Assembly: GCF_004321985.1 (NCBI RefSeq)
Contig: NZ_SCQN01000009.1
Coordinates: forward strand, 25,033-89,032
DNA from: Castellaniella sp.
GTDB taxonomy: Bacteria; Pseudomonadota; Gammaproteobacteria; Burkholderiales; Burkholderiaceae_B
Length of the DNA stretch: 64,000 bases
Direction of reading: 5' to 3'
Of the stretch, positions 4,810 to 62,691 are shown piece after piece (the first letter of the stretch is position 1; each line of letters opens with the position of its first letter). Below the pieces are notes generated by a model, which saw only the letters and a program-made list of their open reading frames with translations, was not told the DNA's origin and searched no databases. The translations under genes and the position numbers were made by a program.

Positions 4810-4812
4810 GCC

Positions 4813-5658: not shown

Positions 5659-5756
5659 CCATCGACGGCGGATGATGGCTCCGAATTCGCCCGTCATATG
5701 CCGCGGCTTTCACACCGACTGGAGCCAGCGACGGATTCTTATCACGTGAGGAAGAA

Positions 5757-6428
5757 ATGCTCAAACAGATCAATGAATTCAACAGAGACCGGGACATGCT
5801 CGAACAGTTCGACAGCATCTTGTCGACCTATTCGATCTCGGCCGTGATCGCCGATTCACAGTACAGAACCGGCGTGATGGATAGCGGCATCAAACCCGTC
5901 TTCCGTGCAAAGGTTTGCGGCCAAGCCGTCACCGTCCAGCTCTCGAAAGGAGATCTGGTCGACCCATTGAAGGCTTTGGAGGTCTCCCAGCCGGGAGACA
6001 TCATCGTGGTGGACGCCGGCGGTGATCTCAATACATCAGTATGCGGCGGACTCATGGGAGGGTTGGCCAAGAATCGCGGAATCAGGGGCATGATCGTCGA
6101 CGGCGCGGGCCGTGACATCGATGAGCTGGAAGACATTCATTGGCCCATCTGGGTCAGAGCGGTTACTCCGCGCGGCACCCACACCATGTTCTCGGGCCGA
6201 AAGGACGAGCTGTCCATCAACGTACCGATCTCGGTGGGTGGAGAACTGGTCAAGCCGGGGGACTTCATTGTCGCGGATCTCCTGGGCGTGGTGGTCGTGC
6301 CGTATGAAAACGCGCGAGAGGTCGTGCAAAAGGCCAGGGAGCAGGCGGCGCGCGAAGCGGCAACTCGCGAGCAAGTTGCACAGGGGGCCACGGTGGATGA
6401 ACTACTTGCCAAGTTTGGCCGCATATAG
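5757..6428 (+). CDS. RraA-family protein / HMG-CHA-type 4-hydroxy-2-oxoacid aldolase-like
   Basis: GQAVTV, PGDIIVVDAGG, GGLMG..AKNRGIRGMIVDGAGRD (conserved RD), PGDFIVADLLGVVVVP. Confidence 0.85.
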   Translation: MLKQINEFNRDRDMLEQFDSILSTYSISAVIADSQYRTGVMDSGIKPVFRAKVCGQAVTVQLSKGDLVDPLKALEVSQPGDIIVVDAGGDLNTSVCGGLMGGLAKNRGIRGMIVDGAGRDIDELEDIHWPIWVRAVTPRGTHTMFSGRKDELSINVPISVGGELVKPGDFIVADLLGVVVVPYENAREVVQKAREQAAREAATREQVAQGATVDELLAKFGRI

Positions 6429-12057: not shown

Positions 12058-13455
12058 CTAGATGTGCAATGCCCGTTCATACGCCGCGAGAACAGCCTCA
12101 TGCATCGCCTCGGACTGCGTGGGATGCGGGAACACCGTCCGCATCAGATCCTCCTCGGTCGCCTCCAGCCCCATGGCGACCGCATAGCCATGGATCATCT
12201 CCGTCACCTCGGCCCCCACCATATGAGCACCCAGGAGTTCGCCACTGGCCGCGTCCATCACGACCTTGACAAAACCCTCGGTATCGCCGAGGGCAATTGC
12301 CTTCCCGTTGGCGGCGAATGGGAAGCGGCCCACACGCACCTCACGGCCCCCGGCATGCGCCTGTGCCTCTGTCAGGCCCACATGCGCTACCTGTGGATGG
12401 CTGTATGTGCAAGCTGGAATCCGTGTTGCGTCCAGCGGATGCGGCTTGCCTCCAGCAATGGCCTCCACACAAGTTACCGCCTCATGCGAGGCCTTGTGTG
12501 CCAGCCACGGGGCGCCCGCCAAGTCGCCAATGGCATACACCCCCGGCTCATGCGTGGCACCCAGAGCGTCCGTCAACACATGAGAGCGCTCCACTCTGAC
12601 CGCTGTCCGCTCCAGGCCCAGGCCCTCGTAGTTACCGACGATGCCGGCCGCAACCAGAACCACCTCCGCTTCCAGAGGTTGGGCTACCCCCTGAAGCATG
12701 ATCCGCCACACGGCGCCGACCCGCTGGCTGCCGGCAACGCGCGCACCAAGATGAATCTCCATGCCCTGCTTACGCAACGAGGCTGCAACAAAAGCGGAGA
12801 CTTCCTCGTCTTCTGGGGGCAGGATGCGGTCGGCCATTTCCACGATCCGCACCTGAACACCCAGCGCGTGATAGAAACTGGCGAACTCAACGCCGATCGC
12901 CCCGGCTCCGATGACCACCATGCGCGGTGGCAGAAATCGGGGAGACAGCGCTTCGCGGTAATACCAGACGCTGGCCGGATCGGGGTCCAGACCCGGCAGC
13001 ACCCGCGCTCTGGCACCCGTTGCCAGAATGATGTGCGCCGCTCGAAGCGAGGACTCACGGCCGGATGCCTGTGACCCTTCGAGCCGGATGGCACCACCGC
13101 CTGCCAGGCTCGCGCAAGCGCGAATCACTTCGACGCCGTTCTTCTTCAGTAAATAGGAAACGCCGCGCTGCAGCTCTCCCGCCACCTTGCGCGAGCGGCC
13201 AACCATGGCCGGCAGGTCGGCCACGGGCTGCCCCACCGTCACCCCGTAGCGATCGGCCATTCGGACCAGCCGCAGCACGTCGGCGGACCGGAGCAAGGCC
13301 TTGGTGGGAATGCATCCCCAGTTCAAACACACCCCGCCCAGCTCGGCCTGCTCCACCAGCGCCGTGCGCAATCCCAGTTGTGCGGCCCGGATGGCGGCCA
13401 CATAGCCACCCGGGCCGCCGCCAATGACCGCCACATCGTAATCAACCGATTTCAT
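12058..13455 (-). CDS. lpdA: Dihydrolipoyl dehydrogenase (E3)
   Basis: GGGPGGY, redox motif GGVCLNWGCIPTK, GAGAIGVE, HPTQSE. Confidence 0.95.
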   Translation of the reverse strand: MKSVDYDVAVIGGGPGGYVAAIRAAQLGLRTALVEQAELGGVCLNWGCIPTKALLRSADVLRLVRMADRYGVTVGQPVADLPAMVGRSRKVAGELQRGVSYLLKKNGVEVIRACASLAGGGAIRLEGSQASGRESSLRAAHIILATGARARVLPGLDPDPASVWYYREALSPRFLPPRMVVIGAGAIGVEFASFYHALGVQVRIVEMADRILPPEDEEVSAFVAASLRKQGMEIHLGARVAGSQRVGAVWRIMLQGVAQPLEAEVVLVAAGIVGNYEGLGLERTAVRVERSHVLTDALGATHEPGVYAIGDLAGAPWLAHKASHEAVTCVEAIAGGKPHPLDATRIPACTYSHPQVAHVGLTEAQAHAGGREVRVGRFPFAANGKAIALGDTEGFVKVVMDAASGELLGAHMVGAEVTEMIHGYAVAMGLEATEEDLMRTVFPHPTQSEAMHEAVLAAYERALHI

Positions 13456-13462
13456 GATGTCT

Positions 13463-14737: not shown

Positions 14738-14738
14738 G

Positions 14739-16946: not shown

Positions 16947-16960
16947 GAACAAACTCCAAA

Positions 16961-17785
16961 TCAAATATATCCGTAGGCCGACCAGCCGCCGTCCGCGACG
17001 GCGACGTGACCATTGATGAACGCCGCGTTGTCCGAGGCCAGGAACAGCACCAGAGCCGCGATTTCCTCCGGGGTGCCCAGCCGACCCAACGGGGTCCGCC
17101 TCGACAGCGCATCCAGATCCATCCGCCCCCGCGCCACCAGGTCGTCCACCAGCGCGGTGCGCACATATCCTGGCGCAATGGCGTTGACCCGCACCCCTAG
17201 CGGACCCCATTCCACTGCCAGCGACTTGGTCAGCATGGCCACCGCCGCCTTGCTGGCGCAATAGGCGGCCCGGTTGGGGGCCGCGACCACGCCGTACATG
17301 GACGACGTGTTGACGATGACGCCGCGGCCCCGGGCCGTCATGAGGCGGCCAGCCGCGCGGGCGCAGTAGAAAACCCCATTCAGGTTGACGTCCATGGCCT
17401 TGCGCCATTGGTCGCCCGGAAGCTCCAGCGTCGGGCAATTCATGGAAATCCCGGCATTGTTGAGCAGCACATCCACATGGCCCCAGGCCTGTTCCGTCTC
17501 GGCAAAGACTTGGTCCACGGCCGCTTCGTCATTGACCAGCCCCTGGCGACACTGGATCCCCACGCCGGGATTCGCGGCTTCGAGCTCGGCCCGCACTCTT
17601 TCCATGCCCTCGGCATCCATGTCGAACAGCACCAGCCGCGACTGACAGGCGGCGAAGGCGTGAGCCATTGCACGCCCCAGACCGCTGGCCGCGCCAGTAA
17701 TGAAAACCACCTTGTCAGCCAAACCGGCAAAACCATTCCCGCGCGCCATTCCGACCAGAGCGGCCATCGAGTCCTGCATCCTCAT
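16961..17785 (-). CDS. Short-chain dehydrogenase/reductase
   Basis: TGAASGLG, NNAG, YCASK. Confidence 0.92.
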   Translation of the reverse strand: MRMQDSMAALVGMARGNGFAGLADKVVFITGAASGLGRAMAHAFAACQSRLVLFDMDAEGMERVRAELEAANPGVGIQCRQGLVNDEAAVDQVFAETEQAWGHVDVLLNNAGISMNCPTLELPGDQWRKAMDVNLNGVFYCARAAGRLMTARGRGVIVNTSSMYGVVAAPNRAAYCASKAAVAMLTKSLAVEWGPLGVRVNAIAPGYVRTALVDDLVARGRMDLDALSRRTPLGRLGTPEEIAALVLFLASDNAAFINGHVAVADGGWSAYGYI

Positions 17786-43862: not shown

Positions 43863-44621
43863 TCAGCCGCGGCCCACGAACGGCATCTTGGTCGCCATGA
43901 CGGTGTGGAACAATACGTTGGCTTCCAGTGGAAGATTGGCCATATACAGCACTGACTGTCCGACGATGTCCACGTCCATGCGCGGCTCAACCGCCAGCGT
44001 GCCATCGGCCTGGGGCACACCCTCGGCCATGCGCGCCGTCATGTTGGTGGATGCGTTCCCGATGTCGATCTGGCCCACGGCGATGTCGTATTTGCGCCCA
44101 TCCAGCGACGCCGCCCGCGTCAGGCCCGATACCCCATGCTTGGTGGCCGTATAGGGCGCCGAAAACGGACGCGGCGCATGGGCCGATATGGAACCGTTGT
44201 TGATGATGCGCCCGCCCGGCGGGTTCTTTGACTTCATGACGCGGAAGGCCTCGCGGATGCACAGGAACATGCCGGTCAGGTTGACGTCGACCACCTGCTG
44301 CCACTGCGCCAGCGTCAGGTCTTCGAGCGGCACGGCGGGTGCGCCGCGCCCCGCATTGTTGAACAGCACGTCCAGCCCGCCGAAGTGCTGGACGCAGGTC
44401 TGGAACAGGCGCGCAACCGACTGCTCGTCGGTCACATCGGTGGGCACGGCCAGCGCCCGGTTGCCAGCGCCGGATTGCGCGGCCACCTCTTCCAGCGGTT
44501 CCGGCCGGCGACCCGCAAGCACGACGCGATAACCATCCGACAACAGGGCCCGCGCGGCCGCGCGGCCGACACCGGAACCCGCCCCGGTGACAATGGCGAT
44601 TTTCGAGCTTACAGAACTCAC
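43863..44621 (-). CDS. Short-chain dehydrogenase/reductase
   Basis: [17 protein letters not shown]; GTGA overlap with tctA stop, AGGAG RBS. Confidence 0.9.
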
Positions 44622-46108
44622 GCTGATCTCCTGGCGCGAACAAAGCGCAGAATAGTCGGTACGATCCAGATGGCCAGCGTGATGACGCCCAGCGTCCCGG
44701 CGATGGGCCGCTCAAAGAACGCGAGCAGATGCCCGTCGGCCTTGATGAGCGAGCTGACCAGATTGCTTTCCAGCATACCGCCTAGAATGATGCCCAGGAT
44801 GGTGGGTGCCAGCGGAAACCCATTTTCTTCCATCAGATACGCAATGACGCCGAAGGCCAGCGTCACACCCACATCAAACAGACTGTTGTTGATGGAATAG
44901 GATCCCACCAGGCAGAACAGCAGGATGAGCGGCATCAGGATGTTGCGGGGCACCTTCAGCACCGTGCGCGCCAGGCGGATGGCCCCATAGCCCAGCGGCA
45001 CCATCAGCAGATTGGCAAAGATGAAGATCAGGAAAATGGCGTACAGGGGGACCGCATTCTCGATGAAGATGGTGGGCCCAGGGTTGAGGTTCTTCATGTA
45101 CAGCACGCCAATGACGATAGCCGTGATGGAGTCCCCGGGGATCCCGAACACCAGCGCCGGAATCCACGCGCCGCCCAACGACGAATTGTTGGCCGAGCTG
45201 GCCTCCACGATGCCTTCGACGTAACCGGTGCCGAATTTTTCGGGTGTGCGCGAGAACTTCTTGCTGATGCCGTAAGAAATATAGGCCGCAATATCGGCGC
45301 CGGCTCCCGGCAGAGCGCCCACGACCACGCCCAGCACACTGCCGCGCACCACGGACATCGGGTACTTGATGATGACGCCGTACAGACCTTTGAAGATATG
45401 TCCGACGGTGGCGTCGATCTTCTGAAACCCATGGGCGCTGGTCACGGCATAGCGCAGGACCTCGGACACGGCGAACATCCCGACCATGATGGGAATCAGC
45501 GACAGCCCTCCCAGCAGATCCGGATTGTCAAACGTGAAGCGCGGATAACCCCCCGGGTTGTTCATGCCCACCGTGGTGGCGAACAGGCCGATCAGCAGCG
45601 ACACGAAGCCTTTCAACGGGCTTTCCGAAGCGATGAAAATGGCGCAAGTCAGACCCAGCAGCACCAGCCAGAAGTACTCGTAGGTCGAGAAGTCCAGTGC
45701 GAACTCGGCCAGAACCGGCGCAAAGAAAATCAGCACCAGAGTGCCGAACAAGCCGCCGATGCAGGACACGACCAGGCCCGCACCCAGCGCCCGTCCGGCC
45801 TCTCCCTTCATGGCCATGGCATGCGCCTCGTCGGTGTACGCGGCCGATGCAGGCGTACCGGGGATACGCAACAGGCAGCCGGGAAGGTCGCCCGAGAAAA
45901 TCGCCATCGCCGTCGCCGACACCATGGCGGCAATGGCCGGCACCGCTGGCATGAAGAATGTGACGGGGACCAGCAGGGCGACTGCCATGGTCGCGCTGAG
46001 CCCGGGTACCGCGCCGATGAACAGACCATAGATGGACGACAGCAGGACCACGACGATGACATAGGGGTCCGAAATCATGCCCAGAGCGGCAATAATGTGA
46101 TCAAGCAT
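44618..46108 (-). CDS. tctA: Tripartite tricarboxylate transporter large subunit
   Basis: [28 protein letters not shown]. Confidence 0.93.
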
Positions 46109-46125
46109 GGATCAGTCTCCGGCGG

Positions 46126-46596
46126 TCAGAGAAGTGGCTCGAGCAGGCCCCAGGACAGCGGCACATGCAGCAGGGAATAAAAACCATAGAAAATGATGAC
46201 GCCGCCCAGTGCAGCGATCACCACGGCCGGCACCGGCCGCACCCCGAACGCCAGGAACAGCACCAGCAAGAAGAAAACCGAGAAAACGACGAAGCCGATG
46301 CTGTCCGAGAACAGCATGTACATCACGATCATGATCGGCACCAGCAGGAACCGGAACACGCTGTGTGAACTGCGGAATTCGTTCGACAGCCGCAGCCATG
46401 CCGCGCGCGGCTGCGCCCTCAGGCCGTTGCGGATCAGAAAGAGGGAACAGATGATGAAGCCTGCGCCAATGACGCTGGGAAAGGCACGCGGTCCGAAATC
46501 CTGGCCCGGAATGACGGGAAAGGTCTGCGAATACAGTACGACGGCGATCCCGAAAATGGCCAGCAGGACCCCCGTTAAAACGTCACTGACTTTCAT
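46126..46596 (-). CDS. tctB: Tripartite tricarboxylate transporter small subunit
   Basis: 4-TM, GPRAFP, LHVPLSWG; located between tctC and tctA. Confidence 0.88.
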   Translation of the reverse strand: MKVSDVLTGVLLAIFGIAVVLYSQTFPVIPGQDFGPRAFPSVIGAGFIICSLFLIRNGLRAQPRAAWLRLSNEFRSSHSVFRFLLVPIMIVMYMLFSDSIGFVVFSVFFLLVLFLAFGVRPVPAVVIAALGGVIIFYGFYSLLHVPLSWGLLEPLL

Positions 46597-46617
46597 GCGA
46601 ATAATCCTTGGTTCAGT

Positions 46618-46642
46618 CCGGGCGGGTACGCGACCCGCCCGG
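46618..46642 (-). other. Perfect 10-bp intercistronic stem-loop after tctC
   Basis: CCGGGCGGGT-acgcg-ACCCGCCCGG. Confidence 0.7.
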
Positions 46643-46702
46643 CGTCACCCGGCGGCACACCTCGAAGCGCACGGGCGCCGGGCAGCCGCCAGGTCCGGAA
46701 GA

Positions 46703-47674
46703 TCAGTCCTTGGCCAGACCCAGGGTCTTCATGATCTTGCCCATGTCCGCATCGCTTTTGGCCATGAAGTCAGCGAAGTCCTTGCCGCTGGCGTAGGCAA
46801 TGCCATACCCCTGCTTGGTCATGAAGTCCTTGTATTCCTGGCTGTGATTGATCTTGTCCAGAACCTTTTCGTATTTGGCCGCAATGTCGGCCGGCAGCCC
46901 CTTCGGAGCCACGATCCCGCGCCACGCGCCCATGGTCCAGTCGGAACCTGTCACCGATTTGAGCGTGGGCACATTCGGATACAGACCCGCCGGCTTGTCG
47001 GCCATGACCGCCAGAGGCTTGGCCTTGCCCGCATCGATCAACGAACGAGCCTCGGGCAGAGACACCGGAACCACGTCCACCCCACCCGCCACGAGCTCGA
47101 GCATGGCCGGCGCCGCCCCGTTCGAAGGCACCCAGCGGATGGCATCCGGCTTGATTTTCAGGCTGTTCAGCATGCCGGCCAGCGCGAGCTGCCAGATACC
47201 GCCTTCACCGGTCCCCGAAGCCTTCAGCTTGCCGGGGTTCGCCTTGGCGGCATCCAGCAGGTCCTGCAGCTTCTTGTACTTGGAGTTGGCGCCCACCGTC
47301 ACGCCCGAGGGATCGAAATTCATGAGTGCCAGCGGCGTGTAATCGCTGGGGGTCAGCTTGGTCAGCGCCATGTGGTGCTGCATGGAGATCTCGACCGAGA
47401 TCAGGCCGATGGTGTAGCCATCCGGCTTCGCGCCGGCCATGGCCTGATTGCCCACCACCCCATTGCCCCCCGGACGGTTGACCACGTTGACCGGCGTGCC
47501 CAGTTCCTTTTCCATTAGGCTGCCGATGATGCGCGCCGTGGCGTCCGTGCCGCCGCCCGGCGACCACGACAGCAACAACGTGATGGGCCGATTGGGCCAG
47601 GCCGCGCTGGCTGTCGCCGATACCATGGCCAGCACCGCGACCGCCGCCATTTTCGTCAAAGTGAATCGTTTCAT
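46703..47674 (-). CDS. tctC: Tripartite tricarboxylate transporter substrate-binding protein (Bug family)
   Basis: WPNRPITLLL..PGGGTD..AR, VNRPGGNG, PNVPTL; start MKRFTL with GGAG. Confidence 0.93.
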   Translation of the reverse strand: MKRFTLTKMAAVAVLAMVSATASAAWPNRPITLLLSWSPGGGTDATARIIGSLMEKELGTPVNVVNRPGGNGVVGNQAMAGAKPDGYTIGLISVEISMQHHMALTKLTPSDYTPLALMNFDPSGVTVGANSKYKKLQDLLDAAKANPGKLKASGTGEGGIWQLALAGMLNSLKIKPDAIRWVPSNGAAPAMLELVAGGVDVVPVSLPEARSLIDAGKAKPLAVMADKPAGLYPNVPTLKSVTGSDWTMGAWRGIVAPKGLPADIAAKYEKVLDKINHSQEYKDFMTKQGYGIAYASGKDFADFMAKSDADMGKIMKTLGLAKD

Positions 47675-47750
47675 TTGCTCCTCTCCCTTTTGTTGGTCAT
47701 GAATAAAACACACTACTGACTACCAACTGCCGTCTGCCACACAACCACGC

Positions 47751-48488
47751 TCAATAGGTCGCGCGCCCGCCGGACAGATCAAAGACTGCACCCGTGCTGA
47801 ATGTGCAGGAATCCGAACACAGCCAGGCGACCAGTTCGGCCACCTCCTGGGGTTCACCCAGCCGCTTCATGGGGCTTTTGTCTATCATGGTCTGTACGTG
47901 CTGGGGCGTCATCTGATCCAGCAGCGACGTCCGGACCGCGGCGGGAGCAATCGCATTGACCAGGATTCCGGTTTCGGCGAGCTCCTTCCCCAGTGATTTG
48001 GTGAGAGCAATGACGCCGGCCTTTGACGCGCTGTAGGCCGACGAATTGGGGGTCCCTTCCTTTCCCGCCAGCGAAGCAATGTTCACGATCCTGCCCGATT
48101 CTGCCCGGCGCATGAGAGGCACCACGGTATGGCAGACATGGAACACGCCCAGCAGGTTGACCGAAATGATTCGCGCCCACTCTGTCGGGTCGAACGCTTC
48201 CAGCGAAACCGTGGAGCCCGAAAACCCCGCATTGTTGACCACAAAGTCCAACCGGCCATGGCGGTCCTGGACGGCCTGGGCCGCCCGCTCCACGGCCGAT
48301 CGATCAGACACATCGACCTGGGTAGCCTCGGGGTCGGACGGGTCAACCGCCAGATCCCAATTGCAAACAGTAGCGCCCGCCTGTTGCAGCCGCGTGCGGA
48401 TCGCCGCACCGATACCCGCGTTCGCACCCGTGACGACGGCCACCCGATCGGAAAAGTCGTAGACGGCCGTTCGGGGCGAGCGGGTCAT
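47751..48488 (-). CDS. SDR, LRA5-like (second paralog)
   Basis: TGANAGIG, NNAG, ASLAGKEGTPNSSAYSASK, FSTGAVFDLSGGRATY. Confidence 0.8.
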   Translation of the reverse strand: MTRSPRTAVYDFSDRVAVVTGANAGIGAAIRTRLQQAGATVCNWDLAVDPSDPEATQVDVSDRSAVERAAQAVQDRHGRLDFVVNNAGFSGSTVSLEAFDPTEWARIISVNLLGVFHVCHTVVPLMRRAESGRIVNIASLAGKEGTPNSSAYSASKAGVIALTKSLGKELAETGILVNAIAPAAVRTSLLDQMTPQHVQTMIDKSPMKRLGEPQEVAELVAWLCSDSCTFSTGAVFDLSGGRATY

Positions 48489-49018
48489 CGGATGAACTGA
48501 TCCACGTAGGTTTCGCCCAGACCGACCTCGGTGTAATGCGCCCTGCACATGGCGATCTTGGTGAAAACGTCCTCATAGCCGATGTTCTTGCCATATGGAT
48601 CGGTGTAGTACATGACGCCATTGACCTGGAAGAACGTAATCATTTCTTCGACGTCCGGCGGCACATACAGGGTGTGCGTCTCGCCAGGCGGTTCGAACAC
48701 ATAGCTGCCTTCGGCGGCCTCCCAGTCGTGTTCGAGATAGCGCCAGCGGCCCTTCAGCACGAAGCCATGGACGGGCTGCGGATGCCGGTGGCAGGCCAGC
48801 ACCCCCGAACGCCGAACCCGCAGCAAGTTGGTCCAATAGCCCTGGCCCGCATTGAGACACAACGGGCGGAACCAGACATTTTCGGCTTGAGGAACCCAGA
48901 TGCGCTCATCCGTCGGAATGGCATCGCCCACCACGATATCCGCCAACGCCTCACGTGGATTGACCCCCTGAAAAGGCAAGGGTTTCAACCCCGGGTCGAC
49001 AGACGATTTCTGGCCCAT
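48485..49018 (-). CDS. Cupin dioxygenase, 2,4'-dihydroxyacetophenone dioxygenase (DAD)/ChrR-like family
   Basis: DERIWVP, WFRPL, CHRHPQPVHGFVLKGRWRYLEH, EPPGETHTL (HxH...H triad). Confidence 0.85.
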   Translation of the reverse strand: MGQKSSVDPGLKPLPFQGVNPREALADIVVGDAIPTDERIWVPQAENVWFRPLCLNAGQGYWTNLLRVRRSGVLACHRHPQPVHGFVLKGRWRYLEHDWEAAEGSYVFEPPGETHTLYVPPDVEEMITFFQVNGVMYYTDPYGKNIGYEDVFTKIAMCRAHYTEVGLGETYVDQFIR

Positions 49019-49207: not shown

Positions 49208-50149
49208 GTGAACGCAGTCGATCTGTATCGCTGGATGCTGACCAGCCGCCAGCTTGAGTCAGCCCTGAGCAGCAAGAATCCACGCTGGTTTTCGACGGAA
49301 GGTGAAGAGGCCACGATCGTGGGCGCCTTCGCGGGCATCCGCGAAGGCGACATCGCCGCCCCGCACTACCGGGGTCCGTTCGTCACCTACCTGATGCGCG
49401 GCGCCGACATGAAGCGGCTCGCCTGCCAGGCCTTCGGCAAGGCTGGCGGCTACAGCAAGGGCCGCTCGGTCCCCTTCATCGGGCCAGCCGCGCTGGGATT
49501 CGTCCCGTGGGTCGCCGGGGACCTGGGAACGTCGCTGGGCATCGCGACCGGCGCCGCGCTCGCGTTGCAGCGCAGCGGGCGGGGCGGCGTCTGCATCTGT
49601 TCGTTCGGTGACGGGACCTCGAATCGCGGCGATTTTCACGAAAGCGTCAATCTCGCAGCGCTCTGGAAGCTTCCCATCGTCTACGTCTGCCAGAACAACA
49701 GCTGGGCCATCTCCCAGCCGGCGCGCAGCTACCTCCCTGCCCCCATTGTCGAACGCGCAAAAGGCTATGGAATCCCGGGCATTGCGCTGGACGGCAACGA
49801 CGCAGAAGCCGTGCACGACGCGGTCACACGGGCCATGGCCCGAGCAGCTGAGGGCCAAGGCCCCACGCTGATCGAGGCCCGGACATGGCGTAAGGGCGGC
49901 CACTGGGCCAACGACAAGACACCTTACCGCACGGCCGCCGACGTCCCCGACCACCCGTGCGACCCGCTGGAACTCATGCGCCAGCGGTTGCTGGACCGAC
50001 GCGAGGCAAGCCCGGTCGATCTGGAACGGATGCGGGCCACCATCGCAGCTCAGGTAGACGCCGCCATCGAATACGCGGCGAACCAACCGGACGCAGGCGA
50101 GCCCGAATTCGGCCTGGACGAGGTCCTCGCGCAGACATCCCCGGCCTGA
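49208..50149 (+). CDS. TPP-dependent 2-oxoacid dehydrogenase E1 alpha subunit
   Basis: GTG start; GEEA, HYRG, SFGDGTSN...CQNN, GPTLIEA. Confidence 0.9.
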   Translation: MNAVDLYRWMLTSRQLESALSSKNPRWFSTEGEEATIVGAFAGIREGDIAAPHYRGPFVTYLMRGADMKRLACQAFGKAGGYSKGRSVPFIGPAALGFVPWVAGDLGTSLGIATGAALALQRSGRGGVCICSFGDGTSNRGDFHESVNLAALWKLPIVYVCQNNSWAISQPARSYLPAPIVERAKGYGIPGIALDGNDAEAVHDAVTRAMARAAEGQGPTLIEARTWRKGGHWANDKTPYRTAADVPDHPCDPLELMRQRLLDRREASPVDLERMRATIAAQVDAAIEYAANQPDAGEPEFGLDEVLAQTSPA

Positions 50150-50176
50150 AACGGTCATCCTTCATTCGAGGTCATC

Positions 50177-51211
50177 ATGGATCAGGTCAGGACTCAGGCT
50201 GGCACCGACACCACGGCCACTCGTCATCCAAGGCTCACCTTCGCACAAGCGGTGATCGAAGCCATCCGGCACGAAATGCGCGCGGACGACACCGTCTTCT
50301 ATCTCGGCCAGGACGTCGGGCCATTTGGCGGCGTGATGCAGGGCACACAAGGACTGTACGAGGAATTCGGTCCACAGCGGATTCTGGAGACTCCCATCAG
50401 CGAATCCGCCATGGCGGGCATCGGCCTGGGCGCCTCGTGCTTCGGCTGCAAACCGATCGTGGAGCTGAGCTTCGGGGAGTTCCTGCCGGCCGCCATGAAC
50501 CAGCTCATCAATCAGGCCCCCAACCTGCACTACATGACGGCAGGCGCCGTGTCGCCCCAGGTGGTCATCCGCACCCGCGCCGGCGACGGTCCGTACGGCG
50601 GCCACCCGCAGGATTATTCGGTCTGGTTCTGCCACGTCCCGGGGCTGAAGGTCGTGATGCCGGCCACACCGCCGGACGCCTACCAGCTCATGCGGGCGGC
50701 GATCCGGGACCCGGCGCCGGTGCTGTTCGTCGAACCCATGTCACTGTCGCACGGACGCCGCGAGGTGGTGGACCTGGACGCCACCGACGCCACATTGGGA
50801 AGCGCCCGAATCGCCCGCGCCGGAAGGGACCTCACCATCGTCGCCTACGGGTCCGAGCTTCCGCACGTCCTGCGGGCCGCCCAGCAGGCAGCCGAGGAAG
50901 GCGTGGACGCGGAAGTCATCGACCTGCGCTCCCTCGCGCCCTGGGACGAAGACACGGTCATCGGCTCGGTGCGTCGGACCGGCCGGTTGCTGACGGTCCA
51001 CGAAGCCTGGAAGGCCTTCGGACACGGAGCAGAAGTCATTGCACGGGTCATGGAAGTTCTGGGCGCGGAAGGCCGAACGGTCCGCGCCAGCCGGGTCGGG
51101 GCCAGACCCGTTCCCATCCCCAGCGGACCACTACGCAAACTCGCCCTGCCGACCTGGCAGGACATCCACACCGCCATCCTGCGGAGTGCGGGGATTGCGC
51201 CCCACTCCTGA
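50177..51211 (+). CDS. 2-oxoacid dehydrogenase E1 beta subunit
   Basis: GQDVGPFGG, ETPISE, GGHPQ, EVIDLRSLAPWD. Confidence 0.92.
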   Translation: MDQVRTQAGTDTTATRHPRLTFAQAVIEAIRHEMRADDTVFYLGQDVGPFGGVMQGTQGLYEEFGPQRILETPISESAMAGIGLGASCFGCKPIVELSFGEFLPAAMNQLINQAPNLHYMTAGAVSPQVVIRTRAGDGPYGGHPQDYSVWFCHVPGLKVVMPATPPDAYQLMRAAIRDPAPVLFVEPMSLSHGRREVVDLDATDATLGSARIARAGRDLTIVAYGSELPHVLRAAQQAAEEGVDAEVIDLRSLAPWDEDTVIGSVRRTGRLLTVHEAWKAFGHGAEVIARVMEVLGAEGRTVRASRVGARPVPIPSGPLRKLALPTWQDIHTAILRSAGIAPHS

Positions 51212-51229
51212 CCTGCCACGAATCACGCC

Positions 51230-51952
51230 ATGGAAAGTACCTTCAATCATGTGCCCATCGCCCGCCAATACAAGCTGTCGGGCATGCAGAAGTTCGTGGC
51301 CGAGCGCCTTGCGGCCAGCCTGCACGAGACAGCCAGCGTCACCGCCATGGCCGAGATCCCCATCCGCGGGCTGCTCGAGGCGCAGGCCGCCTGGCGTACC
51401 CGCGGGGTCGAAACCAGCCTCACCCACCACATGCTTCATCTGACGGCCCGTTGCCTGGAACGCCACCGGCCGCTGAACGGCACGCTGCACGAGGGCGTGG
51501 TCTACGAATATGGCCCGGTCAACCTGGCACTGGCCCTCTCCATGCCCAACGGCGACCTGCAGGCCGTGGTCATCCGCGATGCCAGTCAAAAGACCGTGGC
51601 GGATATCGCCGCAGAGACCGACACGCTGATCGGCCTCGCACGCGAGGGCGGGCTCGGGCTCGAACACGTCCGTGGCGGTACCTTCACGCTCAGCAACTAC
51701 GGCAGCCTCGAGCATACGGTCTGGGCCACGCCCATCATCCCGCCCGGGCAGTCCGGCGTGCTGGGCATGGGTCGCGCGCACCCCGGTCTGGTGGCGGACG
51801 ACAGCCCTCAGGGTTGGCATGTGGAAACCGTTCTTCCACTATCCTTCACCTATGATCACCGCGTCATCAACGGCGTACCTGCCGGGCATTTTCTCGAGGA
51901 TCTCGCAGACCTCATGATTCACGCTTCCACGGAGACCCCCCATGAACCATGA
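51230..51952 (+). CDS. E2 acyltransferase, catalytic domain only (no lipoyl or subunit-binding domain)
   Basis: Begins at LSGMQKFVAERL; GGTFTLSNYG, PIIPPGQ, DHRVING. Confidence 0.88.
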   Translation: MESTFNHVPIARQYKLSGMQKFVAERLAASLHETASVTAMAEIPIRGLLEAQAAWRTRGVETSLTHHMLHLTARCLERHRPLNGTLHEGVVYEYGPVNLALALSMPNGDLQAVVIRDASQKTVADIAAETDTLIGLAREGGLGLEHVRGGTFTLSNYGSLEHTVWATPIIPPGQSGVLGMGRAHPGLVADDSPQGWHVETVLPLSFTYDHRVINGVPAGHFLEDLADLMIHASTETPHEP

Positions 51953-52190
51953 ACATACCGTCACCCTGCCGGAACTGGCCAACGACTTCCAGTCCGGCAC
52001 ACTGGTTGCCTGGCGCAAGGCCGTGGGCGACTCGATCCAGCAGGGCGAGGTCATCGCCGAGATCATGACTGACAAGATCAACCTGGAAGTCGAATCGCCG
52101 CACGCCGGTATCGTCAAGACCCTTCTGGTCGAAGTGGACGATACTGTCAACGTCCACCAACCCATCGCCATCATCGAACAAGCCTACTGA
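51942..52190 (+). CDS. Stand-alone lipoyl-carrier protein
   Basis: 82 aa; W.KAVGD.I..GEVIAEIMTDKINLEVESPHAG; own GGAG RBS. Confidence 0.88.
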   Translation: MNHEHTVTLPELANDFQSGTLVAWRKAVGDSIQQGEVIAEIMTDKINLEVESPHAGIVKTLLVEVDDTVNVHQPIAIIEQAY

Positions 52191-52196
52191 ACCACC

Positions 52197-53375
52197 ATGC
52201 AAGCTCATCTCTCCCTACTCCCCGAAGACCATGAACAGGCCCTGCTCATCGGCCGCATTCACGACCCGCGCGACGAAGGTCCCAGCGTCGTGGCCATCCA
52301 GGGCCACGCGCTGCACGACCTGACACCGCACTTCCCCACCGTGTCGCAACTGCTCGAACAGCGCGACCCCGCCGCGATCGTGGCCCGCACCCCGGCCACC
52401 TCGCGATGGTCCCTGGACACCGTGATGCGCAGCACGCTGGACAACAACCGCACGGCGGCGCGCTTCGTCGCCCCCTGCGACCTGCAGGTCATCAAGGCCT
52501 GCGGGGTCACATTCGCCGGCAGCATGCTGGAACGCGTCATCGAAGAAAAGGCCGGCGGCGACCCGAAGCGCGCGACACAAATCCGCGACGAGATCGGCAA
52601 GGTCATCGGTTCAGCCGTCTCCAGCATCCGCCCCGGCTCTGACGACGCCTCACGAGTCCGCCAGTACCTCATCAAGGAAGGGCTCTGGTCCCAGTATCTG
52701 GAAGTCGGCATCGGGCCGGATGCCGAGGTTTTCACCAAGGCGCCCGTGCTGTCGGCCGTCGGTAGTGGCGAGGCGATCGGCATCCTGGCAGCCTCGAAAT
52801 GGAACAACCCCGAGCCCGAGCTGGTGCTCGCCGTGAACTCACGCGGCGAAATTCGCGGGGCGACGCTGGGCAACGACGTGAACCTGCGCGACATCGAAGG
52901 CCGCAGCGCGCTGCTGCTGGGCAAGGCCAAGGACAACAACGCTTCCTGCGCGATCGGCCCCTTCATCCGCCTGTTCGACGAACGCTTCACGCTGGACGAC
53001 GCGCGCCACATGGAACTGGAGCTGCATGTGACGGGCGACGACGGCTTCAGGCTGTCGGGTCACAGCTCCACCAGCCAGATCAGCCGTGACCTGACGGACC
53101 TCGCGGCCCAGACCTGCGGCCGGCATCACCAGTACCCGGACGGCTTCATGCTGTTCACTGGTACGCTGTTCGCCCCCACAGACGATCGCGACGCGCCGGG
53201 CCAGGGATTCACCCACAAGCTGGGCGATCTAGTGCAGATCCGCTCGTCCCGGCTAGGGGCGCTGGTCAACCGCGTCACCCACAGCGAAGACGCCCCGGCG
53301 TGGACCCAGGGCATCATCTGGCTCATGGCGAACCTGGCGCGACGCGGCCTGCTGGGGACTGCGGGCCCGCGCTAA
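52197..53375 (+). CDS. xylX: FAH-family 2-keto-3-deoxy-D-xylonate (D-KDP) dehydratase
   Basis: Close resemblance to recalled Caulobacter XylX: KACGVTFA, GLWSQYLEVGIGPDAEVFTK, WNNPEPE, NDVNLRD.EGRSALLL, HQYPDGF. Confidence 0.85.
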   Translation: MQAHLSLLPEDHEQALLIGRIHDPRDEGPSVVAIQGHALHDLTPHFPTVSQLLEQRDPAAIVARTPATSRWSLDTVMRSTLDNNRTAARFVAPCDLQVIKACGVTFAGSMLERVIEEKAGGDPKRATQIRDEIGKVIGSAVSSIRPGSDDASRVRQYLIKEGLWSQYLEVGIGPDAEVFTKAPVLSAVGSGEAIGILAASKWNNPEPELVLAVNSRGEIRGATLGNDVNLRDIEGRSALLLGKAKDNNASCAIGPFIRLFDERFTLDDARHMELELHVTGDDGFRLSGHSSTSQISRDLTDLAAQTCGRHHQYPDGFMLFTGTLFAPTDDRDAPGQGFTHKLGDLVQIRSSRLGALVNRVTHSEDAPAWTQGIIWLMANLARRGLLGTAGPR

Positions 53376-53390: not shown

Positions 53391-53618
53391 TCATTGGCCC
53401 GTCATTTTCAGTTCGGCGGTGCGCCCGCCGAACCGCACATCCACCATGTCATCTTCCGACAAAACGACGCGGGCAAATTCCGGAATCGGCACGGTCCGAT
53501 CGTTGTACCTGACGACAACGGATCGACTCATGACGGCCAGACGCGCCACGACATCGCTGATGGTGCTACCTGCGGGATAACCAACCAGCACCCCATTCAC
53601 TTTGATATTGGTCGCCAT
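53391..53618 (-). CDS. ThiS/MoaD-like sulfur-carrier (ubiquitin-like) protein with 10-aa tail after GG
   Basis: MATNIKVNG...GSTISDVVARL...VVVRYNDRTVP...FARVVLSEDDMVDVRFGG-RTAELKMTGQ; GAGG RBS. Confidence 0.6.
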   Translation of the reverse strand: MATNIKVNGVLVGYPAGSTISDVVARLAVMSRSVVVRYNDRTVPIPEFARVVLSEDDMVDVRFGGRTAELKMTGQ

Positions 53619-53831
53619 GGCCTCATTACTCCGCCCAGATTTCAACGAATATTGACACCGTAGTCCATTACCGCCATGGGGCGTTGCACTGAAAAGCGCT
53701 TCACCGGGCTCGCCTTGATAATCGTCACGTTGTCGGCGTCAATACCCCGGGTTTCCAGGCTTCCCGTGTTGTCCACCTCGTCCACGAGCCCTATAGTCAA
53801 AGCATGTGACTTGATGACGAAGGGGGGTACG

Positions 53832-54075: not shown

Positions 54076-54837
54076 TCAATGCGGCCCGATGACGGCCATC
54101 AGGCGGGCATGCGCACGGGTCAGATGGCGCTGCATGGCCGCCTGGGCCTGCAGCGGATCGCGGTCAGCCACCGCGTCATAAACGGCCTGGTGCTCATCCA
54201 CGGCGCTCTGCCAGACCAGCTGGTTGTCGAACAGTCGGTGCATCGAGCCGCCGATCGGCGTGTAGCGCTGGTCAAAGAGATCTTCAATGGTCTGGACCAG
54301 CAGCCGGTTGTCGGTCGTCGAGGCCAGCGTGGCATGGAACTGGCGGTCCGCATCGGCCAGCGGCTTGTCCCCCGAATGGCCGCGCAAGTCCAGGGCTTTG
54401 CGCATGGTGGCCATACTGGCCGACAGCGCCTTGAGCTGCTTGTGCGTGATGAAGCGGGCCGCATGCGCCGCCACGCCGCTTTCCAGAAAAAAACGGGTCT
54501 GATTCACTTCCCTGGGGCTATAGCCCATCAGGGACGCCTCGGACGCCACATCGTCGGCCTGGAGTTCCGGGACCGGCACGATCTGCAGAGCATCCCGCGT
54601 CAGGTAAATGCCCGATCCTACGCGAATTTCGATTTCGCCCTGCAGTTCCAGCACGATCAGCGCCTCGCGCAGGCTGGGCCGGGAAATCTGCAGCCGCTGG
54701 GCCAGTTCCCGTTCGGAGGGCAGGCGTGCGCCCACCGGCACGTCCATCCGGTGGATCTCCTGCCGCAGGACCTCCGCAATGTGCATGTAGCTGCGCGCAC
54801 GGTCCAGGACCGGCGCGGTGGTGACTGCCTTTTGCAT
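54076..54837 (-). CDS. FadR-subfamily GntR regulator
   Basis: GARLPSERELAQRLQISRPSLREAL; DRQFH; alternative start 54876. Confidence 0.92.
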   Translation of the reverse strand: MQKAVTTAPVLDRARSYMHIAEVLRQEIHRMDVPVGARLPSERELAQRLQISRPSLREALIVLELQGEIEIRVGSGIYLTRDALQIVPVPELQADDVASEASLMGYSPREVNQTRFFLESGVAAHAARFITHKQLKALSASMATMRKALDLRGHSGDKPLADADRQFHATLASTTDNRLLVQTIEDLFDQRYTPIGGSMHRLFDNQLVWQSAVDEHQAVYDAVADRDPLQAQAAMQRHLTRAHARLMAVIGPH

Positions 54838-54882
54838 GAATGCCACCCCTACCTTTAGCACTGAATGTGCGGTCATTCTATC

Positions 54883-61278: not shown

Positions 61279-62691
61279 ATGGATACCCTGACCCTTAAGA
61301 TACTGCACCGCGCCATTCCACCCGACTGCGCGAGCGAATTCCGGGCGCTGTTCGGCGACCGCTTCATCACATCAGAGGCCGTCCGGACTCACCACGGGAC
61401 AGACGAATCCCCCTACCCGGTATGCCCGCCCGACGCCGTAATCTTCCCGCACAACGAGGACGAGGTCGTGCAAATCGTCCGGCTGTGCAACCGGTACAAG
61501 GTACCGGTGATCCCCTTCGGGATCGGTTCGTCGCTTGAAGGCCACGTACTCCCCATCCAGGGCGGCATCACACTGGACTTCACCGAGATGAACCGGGTGC
61601 TGGCCATCAACGCCGAAGACTTCACCGTCACGGTGCAACCCGGAGTCATCCGCACCCAGTTGAACGACGAAATCCGCGACACCGGGCTGTTCTTCCCCAT
61701 CGACCCCGGCGCCCACGCTTCCATCGGCGGCATGACCGCCACGCGTGCGTCGGGCACCAACGCCGTGCGCTACGGCACCATGCGCGAAAACGTGGTCTCG
61801 CTGAAAGTCGTGACCGCCCAGGGCGACATCGTGCGCACCGCCAGCCGGGCCCGCAAATCGTCTTCTGGTTACGATCTGACCCATCTGTACGTGGGCAGCG
61901 AAGGCACGCTGGGCATCATCGTGGAAATCACCGTCCGCGTCTACCCGCGTCCGGAAACGATCTCGGCCGCTATCTGCAACTTCCCGACGCTGTCCGACGC
62001 CGTCCAGTCTGTGGTCGAGATCATGCAATACGGCGTGCCCATCGCACGCGTCGAATTCATGGACCAGCACGCGGTCAACGCCGTGAACCGCCACAGCAAG
62101 CTCGGGCTGAAGGAAACACCGCTGCTGCTGTTCGAATTCCACGGCAGCAAGACGGGCGTCCAGGAACAGATCGAGGCCGTGCAGGAAATCACGCAGGGTA
62201 ACGGCGGGATGGACTTCCAGTGGGCGGAGCGTCCCGAGGACCGCACCCGCCTGTGGCACGCGCGGCACAATTCCCATTACGCCGGCCTGCAGCTGCGCCC
62301 GGGCAGCCGCAGCGTGGCCACCGATGTCTGCGTGCCGATTTCACGCCTGGCCGACTGCGTGACGCAGACGGCCGCCGATCTGGAAGGCATGCCGTTCCCG
62401 TACACCATCGTGGGCCACGTCGGCGACGGCAACTTTCACGTGCAGATGCTGATCGACCCCGACAAGCCCGAAGAATGGCAAAAGTCCGAAGCGATCAACC
62501 ACCGCCTGGTCCACCGCGCCATCGCCATGGACGGAACCTGCTCAGGCGAGCATGGCGTAGGCATCCACAAGATGGAGTTTCTGAAGGCGGAACACGGGGA
62601 AGCCGCACTGGAACTCATGCGCCTGATCAAGCACGCCTACGACCCGAACAACATCTTCAATCCTGGCAAGGTCATCGCGTGGGAGGCCTGA
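61279..62691 (+). CDS. FAD-linked 2-hydroxyacid oxidase (D-lactate dehydrogenase/GlcD-type)
   Basis: PFGIGSSLEG, PIDPGAHASIGGM, GSEGTLG, HVGDGNFH, SGEHGVG. Confidence 0.9.
   Translation: MDTLTLKILHRAIPPDCASEFRALFGDRFITSEAVRTHHGTDESPYPVCPPDAVIFPHNEDEVVQIVRLCNRYKVPVIPFGIGSSLEGHVLPIQGGITLDFTEMNRVLAINAEDFTVTVQPGVIRTQLNDEIRDTGLFFPIDPGAHASIGGMTATRASGTNAVRYGTMRENVVSLKVVTAQGDIVRTASRARKSSSGYDLTHLYVGSEGTLGIIVEITVRVYPRPETISAAICNFPTLSDAVQSVVEIMQYGVPIARVEFMDQHAVNAVNRHSKLGLKETPLLLFEFHGSKTGVQEQIEAVQEITQGNGGMDFQWAERPEDRTRLWHARHNSHYAGLQLRPGSRSVATDVCVPISRLADCVTQTAADLEGMPFPYTIVGHVGDGNFHVQMLIDPDKPEEWQKSEAINHRLVHRAIAMDGTCSGEHGVGIHKMEFLKAEHGEAALELMRLIKHAYDPNNIFNPGKVIAWEA

What the first reader, a model, noticed from the sequence alone, without database searches (positions are those of the whole stretch)
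49208..52190. 2-oxoacid dehydrogenase with split, order-reversed E2 and a free lipoyl carrier, lacking E3
Seen: E1alpha, E1beta, then a 240-aa E2 catalytic domain (DHRVING intact), then a separate 82-aa lipoyl protein (TDK) with its own RBS, overlapping by 11 nt. Because lipoyl domains are N-terminal in normal E2, this order cannot result from a simple frameshift. There is no subunit-binding domain and no E3 in the operon. Inference: a dissociable complex using a diffusible lipoyl shuttle, like the glycine-cleavage H-protein, borrowing E3 (for example 12058-13455). This is unusual for a proteobacterial catabolic locus.
Basis: partly seen in the sequence, partly recalled or inferred. Interest (0 to 1): 0.75.

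Follow-up and report, generated by a model that had tools for sequence, protein, structure and literature searches.

The report
Split E2 with free lipoyl carrier
This operon encodes a pyruvate-dehydrogenase-like enzyme whose central E2 protein is made as two separate proteins, a bare catalytic core and a free 82-residue lipoyl carrier with no docking domain, a rare, conserved layout for which I found no published description and which suggests an untethered version of a textbook tethered machine.

Summary
Five tightly packed + strand genes encode E1alpha, E1beta, a 240-aa E2 with the catalytic domain only, an 82-aa lipoyl protein (11-nt overlap, its own GGAGA ribosome-binding site) and a XylX-like FAH-family protein. 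The module has no subunit-binding domain and no E3.

It is not a frameshift or a decaying gene. dN/dS against a syntenic relative is 0.09-0.18 for all genes. The four-gene module recurs in 17 distinct loci down to 34% identity, in three gene orders, always with a separate 74-96-aa lipoyl gene. A tblastn with the window's E3 found nothing in the 20 loci searched. The E2 sits in a well-supported clade of 63 sampled proteins that are all catalytic-only.

The module is rare: 1 of 300 other genomes sampled from the family and 2 clear cases among 400 from the order. The genome has four canonical E2-E3 pairs, so E3 is probably supplied in trans; which one cannot be told.

Best reading: a functional untethered 2-oxoacid/acyloin dehydrogenase with a protein-borne lipoyl shuttle. 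The E2 C-terminus lacks the hydrophobic helix that builds 24/60-mer cores, so a bare trimer is likely; this is inferred. The substrate is unknown, probably an acid-sugar-derived 2-oxo acid. I found no paper describing this layout. Verdict: new variant of a known kind.

The parts
49208..50149 (+). E1 alpha subunit (TPP-binding), 313 aa
   Evidence: PF00676 at 4.8e-59. GTG start with GGGAGA RBS. Best PDB relatives are heterotetrameric PDH/BCKDH E1alpha, E 1.6e-38. dN/dS 0.10.
50177..51211 (+). E1 beta subunit, 344 aa
   Evidence: PF02779 + PF02780. NF006667/NF008854, but below their cut-offs. dN/dS 0.09.
51230..51952 (+). E2 acyltransferase, catalytic domain only, 240 aa; no lipoyl domain, no PSBD; polar C-terminal tail
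   Evidence: PF00198 only. AF2 model pLDDT 89.8 with the last 10 residues disordered. Foldseek matches E2 cores at TM 0.73-0.79. D209/H210 invariant. Sits in a clade of 63 catalytic-only proteins. dN/dS 0.18.
51942..52190 (+). Stand-alone E2-type lipoyl carrier protein, 82 aa, lipoyl-lysine K45 in MTDKINLEVES
   Evidence: PF00364 at 2.9e-20; NCBIfam hits to E2 lipoyl domains at ~1e-19 against biotin carriers at ~1e-5. GGAGA RBS and 11-nt overlap. K45 invariant. AF2 pLDDT 88.7. TM 0.90 and rmsd 1.1-1.3 A to E2 lipoyl domains. dN/dS 0.15.
52197..53375 (+). FAH-family protein, 392 aa, XylX/KdaD-like (2-keto-3-deoxy-pentonate dehydratase type); co-transcribed
   Evidence: PF01557. PDB 9KKT at 3.3e-123 and 2Q18, a 2-keto-3-deoxy-D-arabinonate dehydratase, at 3.1e-20. 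Conserved in the syntenic L087. dN/dS 0.10.
48485..49018 (-). Divergent cupin, 2,4'-dihydroxyacetophenone-dioxygenase-like
   Evidence: PF12973. PDB 4P9G at 1.9e-36. Conserved in L087.
47751..48488 (-). SDR, L-KDR 4-dehydrogenase (LRA5)-like; orthologue conserved divergently next to the module in Castellaniella
   Evidence: PDB 6D9Y at 2.7e-63. PMC11199699 calls 6D9Y the closest structure to L-KDRDH. 66% identical orthologue in L001 and L002; a divergent SDR occupies the same position in L089.
44618..47713 (-). TctC-TctB-TctA tripartite tricarboxylate-type transporter
   Evidence: ORFs. PF03401/PF07331/PF01970 on the syntenic L087 genes.
54076..54876 (-). GntR/FCD regulator
   Evidence: PF00392 + PF07729.
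12058..13455 (-). Lipoamide dehydrogenase (E3) of a separate canonical complex; one of four candidate trans E3s
   Evidence: TIGR01350 at 516.8 bits, above the cut-off, at G000:C3:37093-38472. A canonical E2 lies directly upstream at window 13463-14737.

Best explanation
This is a working, evolutionarily old 'untethered' variant of the heterotetrameric-E1 2-oxoacid/acetoin dehydrogenase system. The proposed cycle has four steps. (1) E1alpha/beta uses thiamine diphosphate to decarboxylate, or cleave, its substrate and reductively acylates the lipoyl-lysine (K45) of the free 82-aa carrier. (2) The acyl-dihydrolipoyl carrier docks on the bare E2 catalytic core. That core is probably only a trimer, because it lacks the hydrophobic C-terminal helix that links trimers. 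The His/Asp active site then passes the acyl group to CoA. (3) The dihydrolipoyl carrier is re-oxidised by a lipoamide dehydrogenase encoded elsewhere; the genome has four. (4) NADH is released. What is shown: the domain content, the conservation, the selection, the catalytic residues, the lipoyl-type fold and motif, and the absence of PSBD and of a neighbouring E3. What is inferred: actual lipoylation, shuttling by diffusion, trimeric state, E3 in trans. The module is a portable catabolic cassette found in varied gene neighbourhoods. Here it sits among acid-sugar genes (XylX-like dehydratase, LRA5-like SDR, IlvD- and enolase-type dehydratases, TTT transporter). Its substrate is therefore most likely a 2-oxo acid derived from a 2-keto-3-deoxy acid sugar, but the substrate is not identified.
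For: Domain content. Overlap and RBS. The same four genes, with a separate 74-96-aa lipoyl gene, occur in 17 distinct loci at 34-93% E2 identity. Three gene orders are seen: E1a-E1b-E2c-Lip, Lip-E1a-E1b-E2c and E2c-Lip-E1a-E1b. dN/dS is 0.09-0.18 against L087. The catalytic D209/H210 and the FTLSN serine region are conserved. K45 is invariant, in the motif (T/S)(D/E)K(V/I/A)(N/A) followed by acidic residues. The lipoyl-type assignment rests on NCBIfam E ~1e-19 against ~1e-5 for biotin carriers and on fold matches at TM 0.90. The E2 fold is confirmed. The tree places it in an SH-like 98 clade of 63 proteins, all under 300 aa. No E3 was found by tblastn in 20 loci. The genome has four E3s over the cut-off, each beside a canonical E2, and LipB/LplA-type enzymes. 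This is the only stand-alone lipoyl protein in the genome. The C-terminal tail is polar and predicted disordered, whereas the four canonical E2s of the same genome end in P-x-x-L-L/F-V. The role of that helix in trimer-trimer 'knobs and sockets' contacts is described in bioRxiv 10.1101/2020.07.24.212647.
Against: No biochemical data exist. Lipoylation, activity, the E3 partner and the oligomeric state are all untested. E1, the E2 core and the carrier could still form a stable complex through contacts that sequence analysis does not reveal. Some family members keep a Trp/Leu near the C-terminus, so loss of higher-order assembly may not hold for the whole family. The neighbourhoods differ greatly between loci, so the acid-sugar substrate guess applies at most to this lineage.
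Confidence: 0.75

Rival explanations
1. Recent gene fission or decay: a normal E2 was broken by rearrangement, and the pieces are non-functional remnants.
For: Only the unusual order and the 11-nt overlap.
Against: dN/dS is 0.15-0.18 for both pieces. The same split persists down to 34% identity in several phyla and in three gene orders. Catalytic and lipoyl residues are invariant. The E2 lies in a monophyletic clade of 63 catalytic-only proteins.
Confidence: 0.02
2. The system is still an assembled complex. The bare E2 core binds E1, and perhaps E3 and the carrier, through non-canonical surfaces, so the lipoyl protein is a tightly bound subunit and not a diffusing shuttle.
For: Strict co-occurrence and translational coupling of the E2 core and carrier genes. 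A subgroup of carriers has a conserved ~20-aa C-terminal tail that could be a docking peptide. Some family members keep Trp/Leu in the E2 tail.
Against: No PSBD was detected in any component. The carrier gene takes different positions relative to the E2 gene. This E2's tail is polar and predicted disordered.
Confidence: 0.18
3. The lipoyl protein is not the acyl carrier of this E2. The E2 core would use lipoyl domains of the canonical E2s, as actinobacterial OdhA uses AceF, and the small protein would have a regulatory, redox or lipoate-relay role.
For: The OdhA precedent for a lipoyl-less E2 domain served in trans. The genome has many canonical lipoyl domains.
Against: The carrier gene accompanies the E1/E2c genes in every locus with enough flank (17 of 17), whatever the gene order. 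Its sequence evolves at rates matching E2c.
Confidence: 0.04
4. The carrier is reoxidised not by E3/NAD+ but by another oxidoreductase, or the acyl-lipoyl carrier feeds a reaction other than CoA transfer.
For: No E3 lies near any family locus. Varied oxidoreductases are neighbours, for example the GlcD-like FAD oxidase at 61279-62691.
Against: No alternative oxidoreductase is conserved across loci. The E2 CoA-transfer residues are intact. Four E3s are available in the genome.
Confidence: 0.05

Closest known systems
Canonical 2-oxoacid dehydrogenase complexes with heterotetrameric E1 (PDH of Geobacillus/mitochondria, BCKDH) and the acetoin dehydrogenase system AcoABCL
   Same: E1alpha/E1beta TPP enzyme. 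CAT-fold E2 catalytic domain with the DHRxxxG active site. E2-type lipoyl domain carrying the reactive lysine. The presumed reaction cycle and the need for a lipoamide dehydrogenase.
   Different: The lipoyl domain is a separate protein encoded after, or elsewhere from, the catalytic gene. There is no linker and no peripheral subunit-binding domain. The hydrophobic C-terminal trimer-trimer helix is missing. No E3 gene lies in or near the operon. All scores are far below the NCBIfam equivalog cut-offs.
Actinobacterial OdhA / trimeric E2p (Corynebacterium, Mycobacterium; bioRxiv 10.1101/2020.07.24.212647, PMC10415282)
   Same: A lipoyl-less E2 catalytic domain that must be served by a lipoyl domain on another polypeptide. 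Loss of the canonical high-order E2 core through changes at the C-terminal helix.
   Different: In OdhA the E2 domain is fused to a homodimeric-type E1o, and the lipoyl domains come from a full-length E2p with a PSBD. Here E1 is the alpha/beta type, the E2 core stands alone, and the lipoyl domain is a dedicated free protein.
Glycine cleavage system H-protein (and GcvH-like LbpA of sulfur oxidisers, PMC6067878)
   Same: A small free lipoylated protein would shuttle between separate enzymes, with a shared lipoamide dehydrogenase. This is a functional analogy.
   Different: The protein family differs. The carrier matches PF00364 E2 lipoyl domains, and GCV_H was not among its Pfam hits. Its partners are E1/E2, not P and T proteins.
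Lipoyl domains in non-E2 positions (N-terminal on E1beta in alphaproteobacteria, NF008854; N-terminal on E3)
   Same: They show that lipoyl domains are mobile modules. This genome's own PDH-linked E3 carries one.
   Different: In those cases the lipoyl domain is still fused to a catalytic subunit, and a full E2 with its own lipoyl domain and PSBD is present.

Membership tests
2-oxoacid dehydrogenase complex (PDH/BCKDH/acetoin type, heterotetrameric E1) | E1 alpha (TPP-binding) and E1 beta (transketolase-like Pyr and C domains) | tested here: met
   PF00676, PF02779 and PF02780. PDB relatives are PDH/BCKDH E1alpha.
2-oxoacid dehydrogenase complex (PDH/BCKDH/acetoin type, heterotetrameric E1) | E2 catalytic domain with the His/Asp (DHRxxxG) active site and CAT-like fold | tested here: met
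   PF00198 at 9.4e-43. D209/H210 invariant. Foldseek TM 0.73-0.79 to E2 cores.
2-oxoacid dehydrogenase complex (PDH/BCKDH/acetoin type, heterotetrameric E1) | One or more lipoyl domains covalently joined to the N-terminus of E2 by flexible linkers (the swinging arm) | tested here: not met
   The E2 is 240 aa and starts at profile position 6 of the catalytic domain. The lipoyl domain is a separate ORF with its own RBS, as in all 17 related loci.
2-oxoacid dehydrogenase complex (PDH/BCKDH/acetoin type, heterotetrameric E1) | Peripheral subunit-binding domain (PF02817) that docks E1 and/or E3 | tested here: not met
   No PF02817 hit in E1a, E1b, E2c or Lip. Canonical homologues do carry PF02817.
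2-oxoacid dehydrogenase complex (PDH/BCKDH/acetoin type, heterotetrameric E1) | Hydrophobic C-terminal 3-10 helix that mediates trimer-trimer contacts to build a 24/60-mer core | tested here: inconclusive
   The aligned C-terminus is IHASTETPHEP, against PQRLLLNV, PALLFVE, FRRIIL and PLAALV in the genome's canonical E2s. It is predicted disordered. The oligomeric state was not measured.
2-oxoacid dehydrogenase complex (PDH/BCKDH/acetoin type, heterotetrameric E1) | Dihydrolipoamide dehydrogenase (E3) available | tested here: met
   None lies in the operon or in related loci, but four lie elsewhere in the genome above the TIGR01350 cut-off. The physical partnership cannot be tested here.
Glycine-cleavage H-protein family | GCV_H fold/profile | tested here: not met
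   Pfam gives only PF00364/PF13533. The best structural matches are E2 lipoyl domains.
Biotin carboxyl carrier proteins | Biotinyl-lysine in an (A/V)MKM motif; profile match to BCCP | tested here: not met
   The motif is MTDKIN. BCCP models score E ~1e-4 to 1e-5, against ~1e-19 for E2 lipoyl models.
Actinobacterial OdhA-type system | E2 catalytic domain fused to a homodimeric-type E1o | tested here: not met
   The E2 core is a separate 240-aa protein, and E1 is the alpha/beta type.
Any lipoyl-dependent enzyme | The carrier lysine is actually lipoylated | not testable with these tools
   Only the sequence motif, the fold and the presence of LipB/LplA-type genes are available.

The most novel reading that the evidence does not exclude
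The clade of catalytic-only E2s with free lipoyl carriers may represent a general 'unassembled' mode of 2-oxoacid dehydrogenase catalysis, with a bare trimeric E2, a diffusing lipoyl protein and a housekeeping E3. In this lineage it would provide a CoA-dependent fate for acid sugars. A 2-keto-3-deoxy acid, its 2,4-diketo derivative, or the XylX product would be oxidatively decarboxylated straight to a (hydroxy/oxo)acyl-CoA, instead of going through aldolase, hydrolase or aldehyde-dehydrogenase routes.
Probability: 0.2. Interest if true: 0.8.

Novelty: new variant of a known kind. Interest (0 to 1): 0.62.

Why it matters
The tethered lipoyl 'swinging arm' on a giant E2 scaffold is the textbook reason why 2-oxoacid dehydrogenases are megadalton complexes, through substrate channelling and active-site coupling. 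A conserved, selected family that has cut the arm off, dropped the docking domain and probably lost core assembly is a natural experiment. It tests whether tethering is needed at all. It also offers a minimal system (E1, ~26-kDa E2, ~9-kDa carrier) for mechanistic and engineering work. The cassette also marks uncharacterised catabolic pathways, here among acid-sugar genes, that current annotation labels only 'E2 subunit' and 'biotin/lipoyl-containing protein'.

Tried and rejected
- **Frameshift or pseudogene:** rejected by dN/dS and by deep conservation of the split.
- **Biotin carrier or H-protein identity for the small protein:** rejected.
- **E3 hidden nearby:** tblastn with the window's E3 against 20 loci found nothing.
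- **Hidden PSBD:** no PF02817 hit.
- **Species-level survey with the search for related loci:** I used the genome search instead.
- **L097 (36% identity):** it turned out to be a canonical E2 with its lipoyl domain upstream in the same frame, so it is not a family member.
- **Literature:** five searches aimed at this layout found no description of a stand-alone lipoyl protein paired with a bare E2 core. The 'lipoyl carrier protein' hit in Pelobacter is a GcvH-like protein and is unrelated.
- **Substrate assignment from context:** neighbourhoods differ too much between loci. They include Lva-like ACAD+APH+SDR, amino-acid dehydrogenase, aminotransferase, acyl-CoA mutase and TauD. No single substrate can be named.
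Full report
**1. Observation**

The + strand between 49208 and 53375 carries five close-packed genes.
- E1alpha is 49208-50149. It starts at a GTG seven bases after GGGAGA.
- E1beta is 50177-51211.
- The E2 is 51230-51952, 240 aa.
- The lipoyl protein is 51942-52190, 82 aa.
- An FAH-family protein is 52197-53375, 392 aa.

Gaps between genes are 27, 18, -11 and 6 nt. The 11-nt overlap (ATG at 51942; E2 stop TGA at 51950-51952) and the GGAGA site at 51932-51936 are read directly from the sequence.

Pfam gives E1_dh for E1alpha and Transket_pyr + Transketolase_C for E1beta. The 240-aa protein matches 2-oxoacid_dh only, over profile positions 6-224 of 232. The 82-aa protein matches Biotin_lipoyl only. 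No E3_binding (PSBD) hit appears in any of them. NCBIfam places the small protein with E2 lipoyl domains (E ~1e-19), far better than with biotin carriers (~1e-5). All four core proteins fall well below every equivalog cut-off.

**2. A real, old, selected architecture**

Homologues of the 240-aa E2 are themselves 225-249-aa catalytic-only proteins. Gene neighbourhoods were recovered for these sources:
- Castellaniella (68% identity) and Candidimonas nitroreducens (55%);
- several metagenome contigs (33-52%);
- Burkholderiales MAGs (46-48%);
- Paracoccus sulfuroxidans (36%);
- a deltaproteobacterial MAG (34%).

All contain E1alpha, E1beta, the bare E2 and a separate 74-96-aa lipoyl gene. Three gene orders occur:
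- E1a-E1b-E2c-Lip, as in the window;
- Lip-E1a-E1b-E2c, which in Paracoccus has a class-III aminotransferase inserted before E2c;
- E2c-Lip-E1a-E1b.

L010 first seemed to lack the carrier. It has a frameshifted copy upstream of E1a. Because the carrier gene sits at different positions, the split cannot be a local frameshift. It predates the divergence of these lineages.

Nei-Gojobori dN/dS against a syntenic relative (L087, 85-91% amino-acid identity) is 0.10 for E1a, 0.09 for E1b, 0.18 for E2c, 0.15 for Lip and 0.10 for FAH. More distant comparisons give similar values.

D209/H210 of the DHRxxNG active site and the FTLSN segment are conserved in 24 family members. The lipoyl lysine K45 is invariant in 20 stand-alone carriers, within (T/S)(D/E)K(V/I/A)(N/A)xE.

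AlphaFold2 models are confident: pLDDT 89.8 for the E2 and 88.7 for the carrier. They match E2 catalytic cores (TM 0.73-0.79) and E2 lipoyl domains (TM ~0.9, rmsd 1.1-1.3 A) respectively.

I built a FastTree of 213 catalytic domains. The inputs were the family, the top 150 representatives from a profile search of 1.84 billion proteins, and the genome's own four E2s. The window protein falls in an SH-like 98 clade of 63 sequences, all under 300 aa. Elsewhere on the tree the catalytic-only state arises several more times; some of these are probably fragments.

**3. Frequency and genomic setting**

The module is rare.
- At E <= 1e-35 it occurs in 1 of 300 other genomes sampled from the same family, and in none of the 12 same-genus genomes listed.
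- At E <= 1e-32 it matches 3 of 400 other genomes sampled from the order. One of these, L097, is a canonical E2, which leaves 2 clear cases.

Rarity together with varied neighbourhoods suggests a mobile catabolic cassette.

The window's genome (3.4 Mb) has four canonical E2s, each next to its own lipoamide dehydrogenase above the TIGR01350 cut-off. One pair lies in this window: E3 at 12058-13455 and E2 at 13463-14737, both on the minus strand. It belongs to a complete canonical unit, and nothing favours it over the other three.

The split E2 is a fifth system. Its carrier is the only stand-alone lipoyl protein in the genome. LipB/LplA-type enzymes are present. A tblastn with the window's E3 found no homologue in any of the 20 loci searched. 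Absence of a dedicated E3 is therefore a trait of the family.

**4. Mechanism**

The parts suffice for the standard cycle if the carrier acts in trans:
1. E1 reductively acylates lipoyl-K45.
2. The bare E2 core transfers the acyl group to CoA.
3. A housekeeping E3 reoxidises the dihydrolipoyl carrier with NAD+.

With no PSBD there is no known way to dock E1 or E3.

The E2 C-terminus also differs from the norm. The genome's canonical E2s end in the hydrophobic motif P-x-x-L-L/F-V. The aligned tail here is IHASTETPHEP, and in relatives DDWIGEEDRA and similar. The model predicts it to be disordered. Published work shows that this C-terminal 3-10 helix makes the 'knobs and sockets' contacts between trimers, and that altering it reduces actinobacterial E2p to a trimer (bioRxiv 10.1101/2020.07.24.212647). 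I therefore infer a trimeric, non-scaffolding E2 and a diffusing carrier.

This resembles the glycine-cleavage H-protein in function only. The carrier belongs to the E2 lipoyl-domain family. Lipoylation, diffusion, the E3 partner and the oligomeric state are all inferences.

**5. Substrate**

The substrate is not resolved. In this lineage the operon ends with an FAH-family protein that matches PDB 9KKT (3e-123) and the 2-keto-3-deoxy-D-arabinonate dehydratase 2Q18 (3e-20).

The divergent operon begins with two genes:
- a 2,4'-dihydroxyacetophenone-dioxygenase-like cupin (4P9G);
- an SDR whose best structure match is 6D9Y. PMC11199699 describes 6D9Y as the closest structure to L-KDR 4-dehydrogenase.

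A TctCBA transporter follows, together with further SDRs and an Ldh_2-family enzyme. Downstream lie enolase-superfamily and IlvD-type dehydratases and a GlcD-like oxidase. This setting points to an acid-sugar-derived 2-oxo acid.

Other loci pair the module with different genes:
- acyl-CoA dehydrogenase + APH-type kinase + SDR;
- amino-acid dehydrogenase;
- aminotransferase;
- B12 acyl-CoA mutase + MeaB;
- TauD.

The cassette evidently serves different substrates in different hosts.

**6. Comparison with known systems and novelty**

The closest systems are these:
- canonical heterotetrameric-E1 complexes and AcoABCL, which share the chemistry but have a tethered arm, a PSBD and usually an E3;
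- actinobacterial OdhA with trimeric E2p, which has a lipoyl-less E2 domain served in trans but fused to E1o and dependent on a full E2p;
- lipoyl domains fused to E1beta or to E3. This genome's own PDH-linked E3 has one.

Five literature searches aimed at this layout found no description of a free E2-type lipoyl protein paired with a bare E2 core. Public annotations read only '2-oxo acid dehydrogenase subunit E2' and 'biotin/lipoyl-containing protein'.

Earlier notes of this scan report similar split E2s in other genomes. They agree with this reading but are not independent evidence.

I class this as a new variant of a known kind. Interest is moderate to high for specialists in multienzyme complexes.

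**7. Limits**

No multimer modelling and no biochemistry were possible. The species census is a sample, not a count.

Noticed in passing
window 47751-49018 (minus strand): A cupin related to 2,4'-dihydroxyacetophenone dioxygenase (4P9G, 1.9e-36) overlaps by 4 nt an SDR whose best PDB match is 6D9Y. PMC11199699 calls 6D9Y the closest structure to L-KDR 4-dehydrogenase (LRA5). No LRA6/FucG-type small hydrolase was seen among the neighbouring genes I scanned. This may be an alternative fate for 2,4-diketo-3-deoxy acids.
   Followed up: partly
window 52197-53375: A 392-aa FAH-family protein is co-transcribed with the split dehydrogenase. It is very close to PDB 9KKT (3e-123, deposited as 'FAH family protein') and related to the KdaD dehydratase 2Q18. 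It is XylX-like, and no aldehyde dehydrogenase was seen among the neighbouring genes I scanned.
   Followed up: partly
own genome C4:45531-47279 (minus strand), outside the window: The lipoamide dehydrogenase next to the two-lipoyl-domain AceF-type E2 carries its own N-terminal lipoyl domain (638-aa open frame).
   Followed up: no
window 12058-17438 (minus strand): A complete accessory unit: an 899-aa ORF (not analysed), then a canonical E2 (lipoyl + PSBD-like linker + core), then E3. It is a fourth canonical complex in a 3.4-Mb genome.
   Followed up: partly
window 53391-53645 (minus strand): An 84-aa ORF between the FAH gene and the GntR regulator, with an internal ...VRFGG motif followed by 10 more residues. 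It looks like a ThiS/MoaD-type small protein. I did not analyse it.
   Followed up: no
L001/L089 (Castellaniella-like) and L094: In these relatives the split-E2 module sits next to an acyl-CoA dehydrogenase, an APH-type kinase and an SDR. From memory, this set resembles the Lva/ACAD10-11 route for 4-hydroxyacyl-CoAs, which hints that the product there is a 4-oxo- or 4-hydroxyacyl-CoA.
   Followed up: no
L007, L008, L009, L038 (Burkholderiales MAGs): The carriers of the Lip-first gene order have a conserved ~20-aa C-terminal tail (DEPRDAAAIERAVAGLGG) that is absent from the window's carrier. It could be a docking peptide.
   Followed up: no
L011 (Paracoccus sulfuroxidans) 4570-5918: A class-III aminotransferase gene lies between E1beta and the bare E2 gene, with a branched-chain-type ABC transporter upstream. 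This suggests an amine-derived oxo substrate in that lineage.
   Followed up: partly
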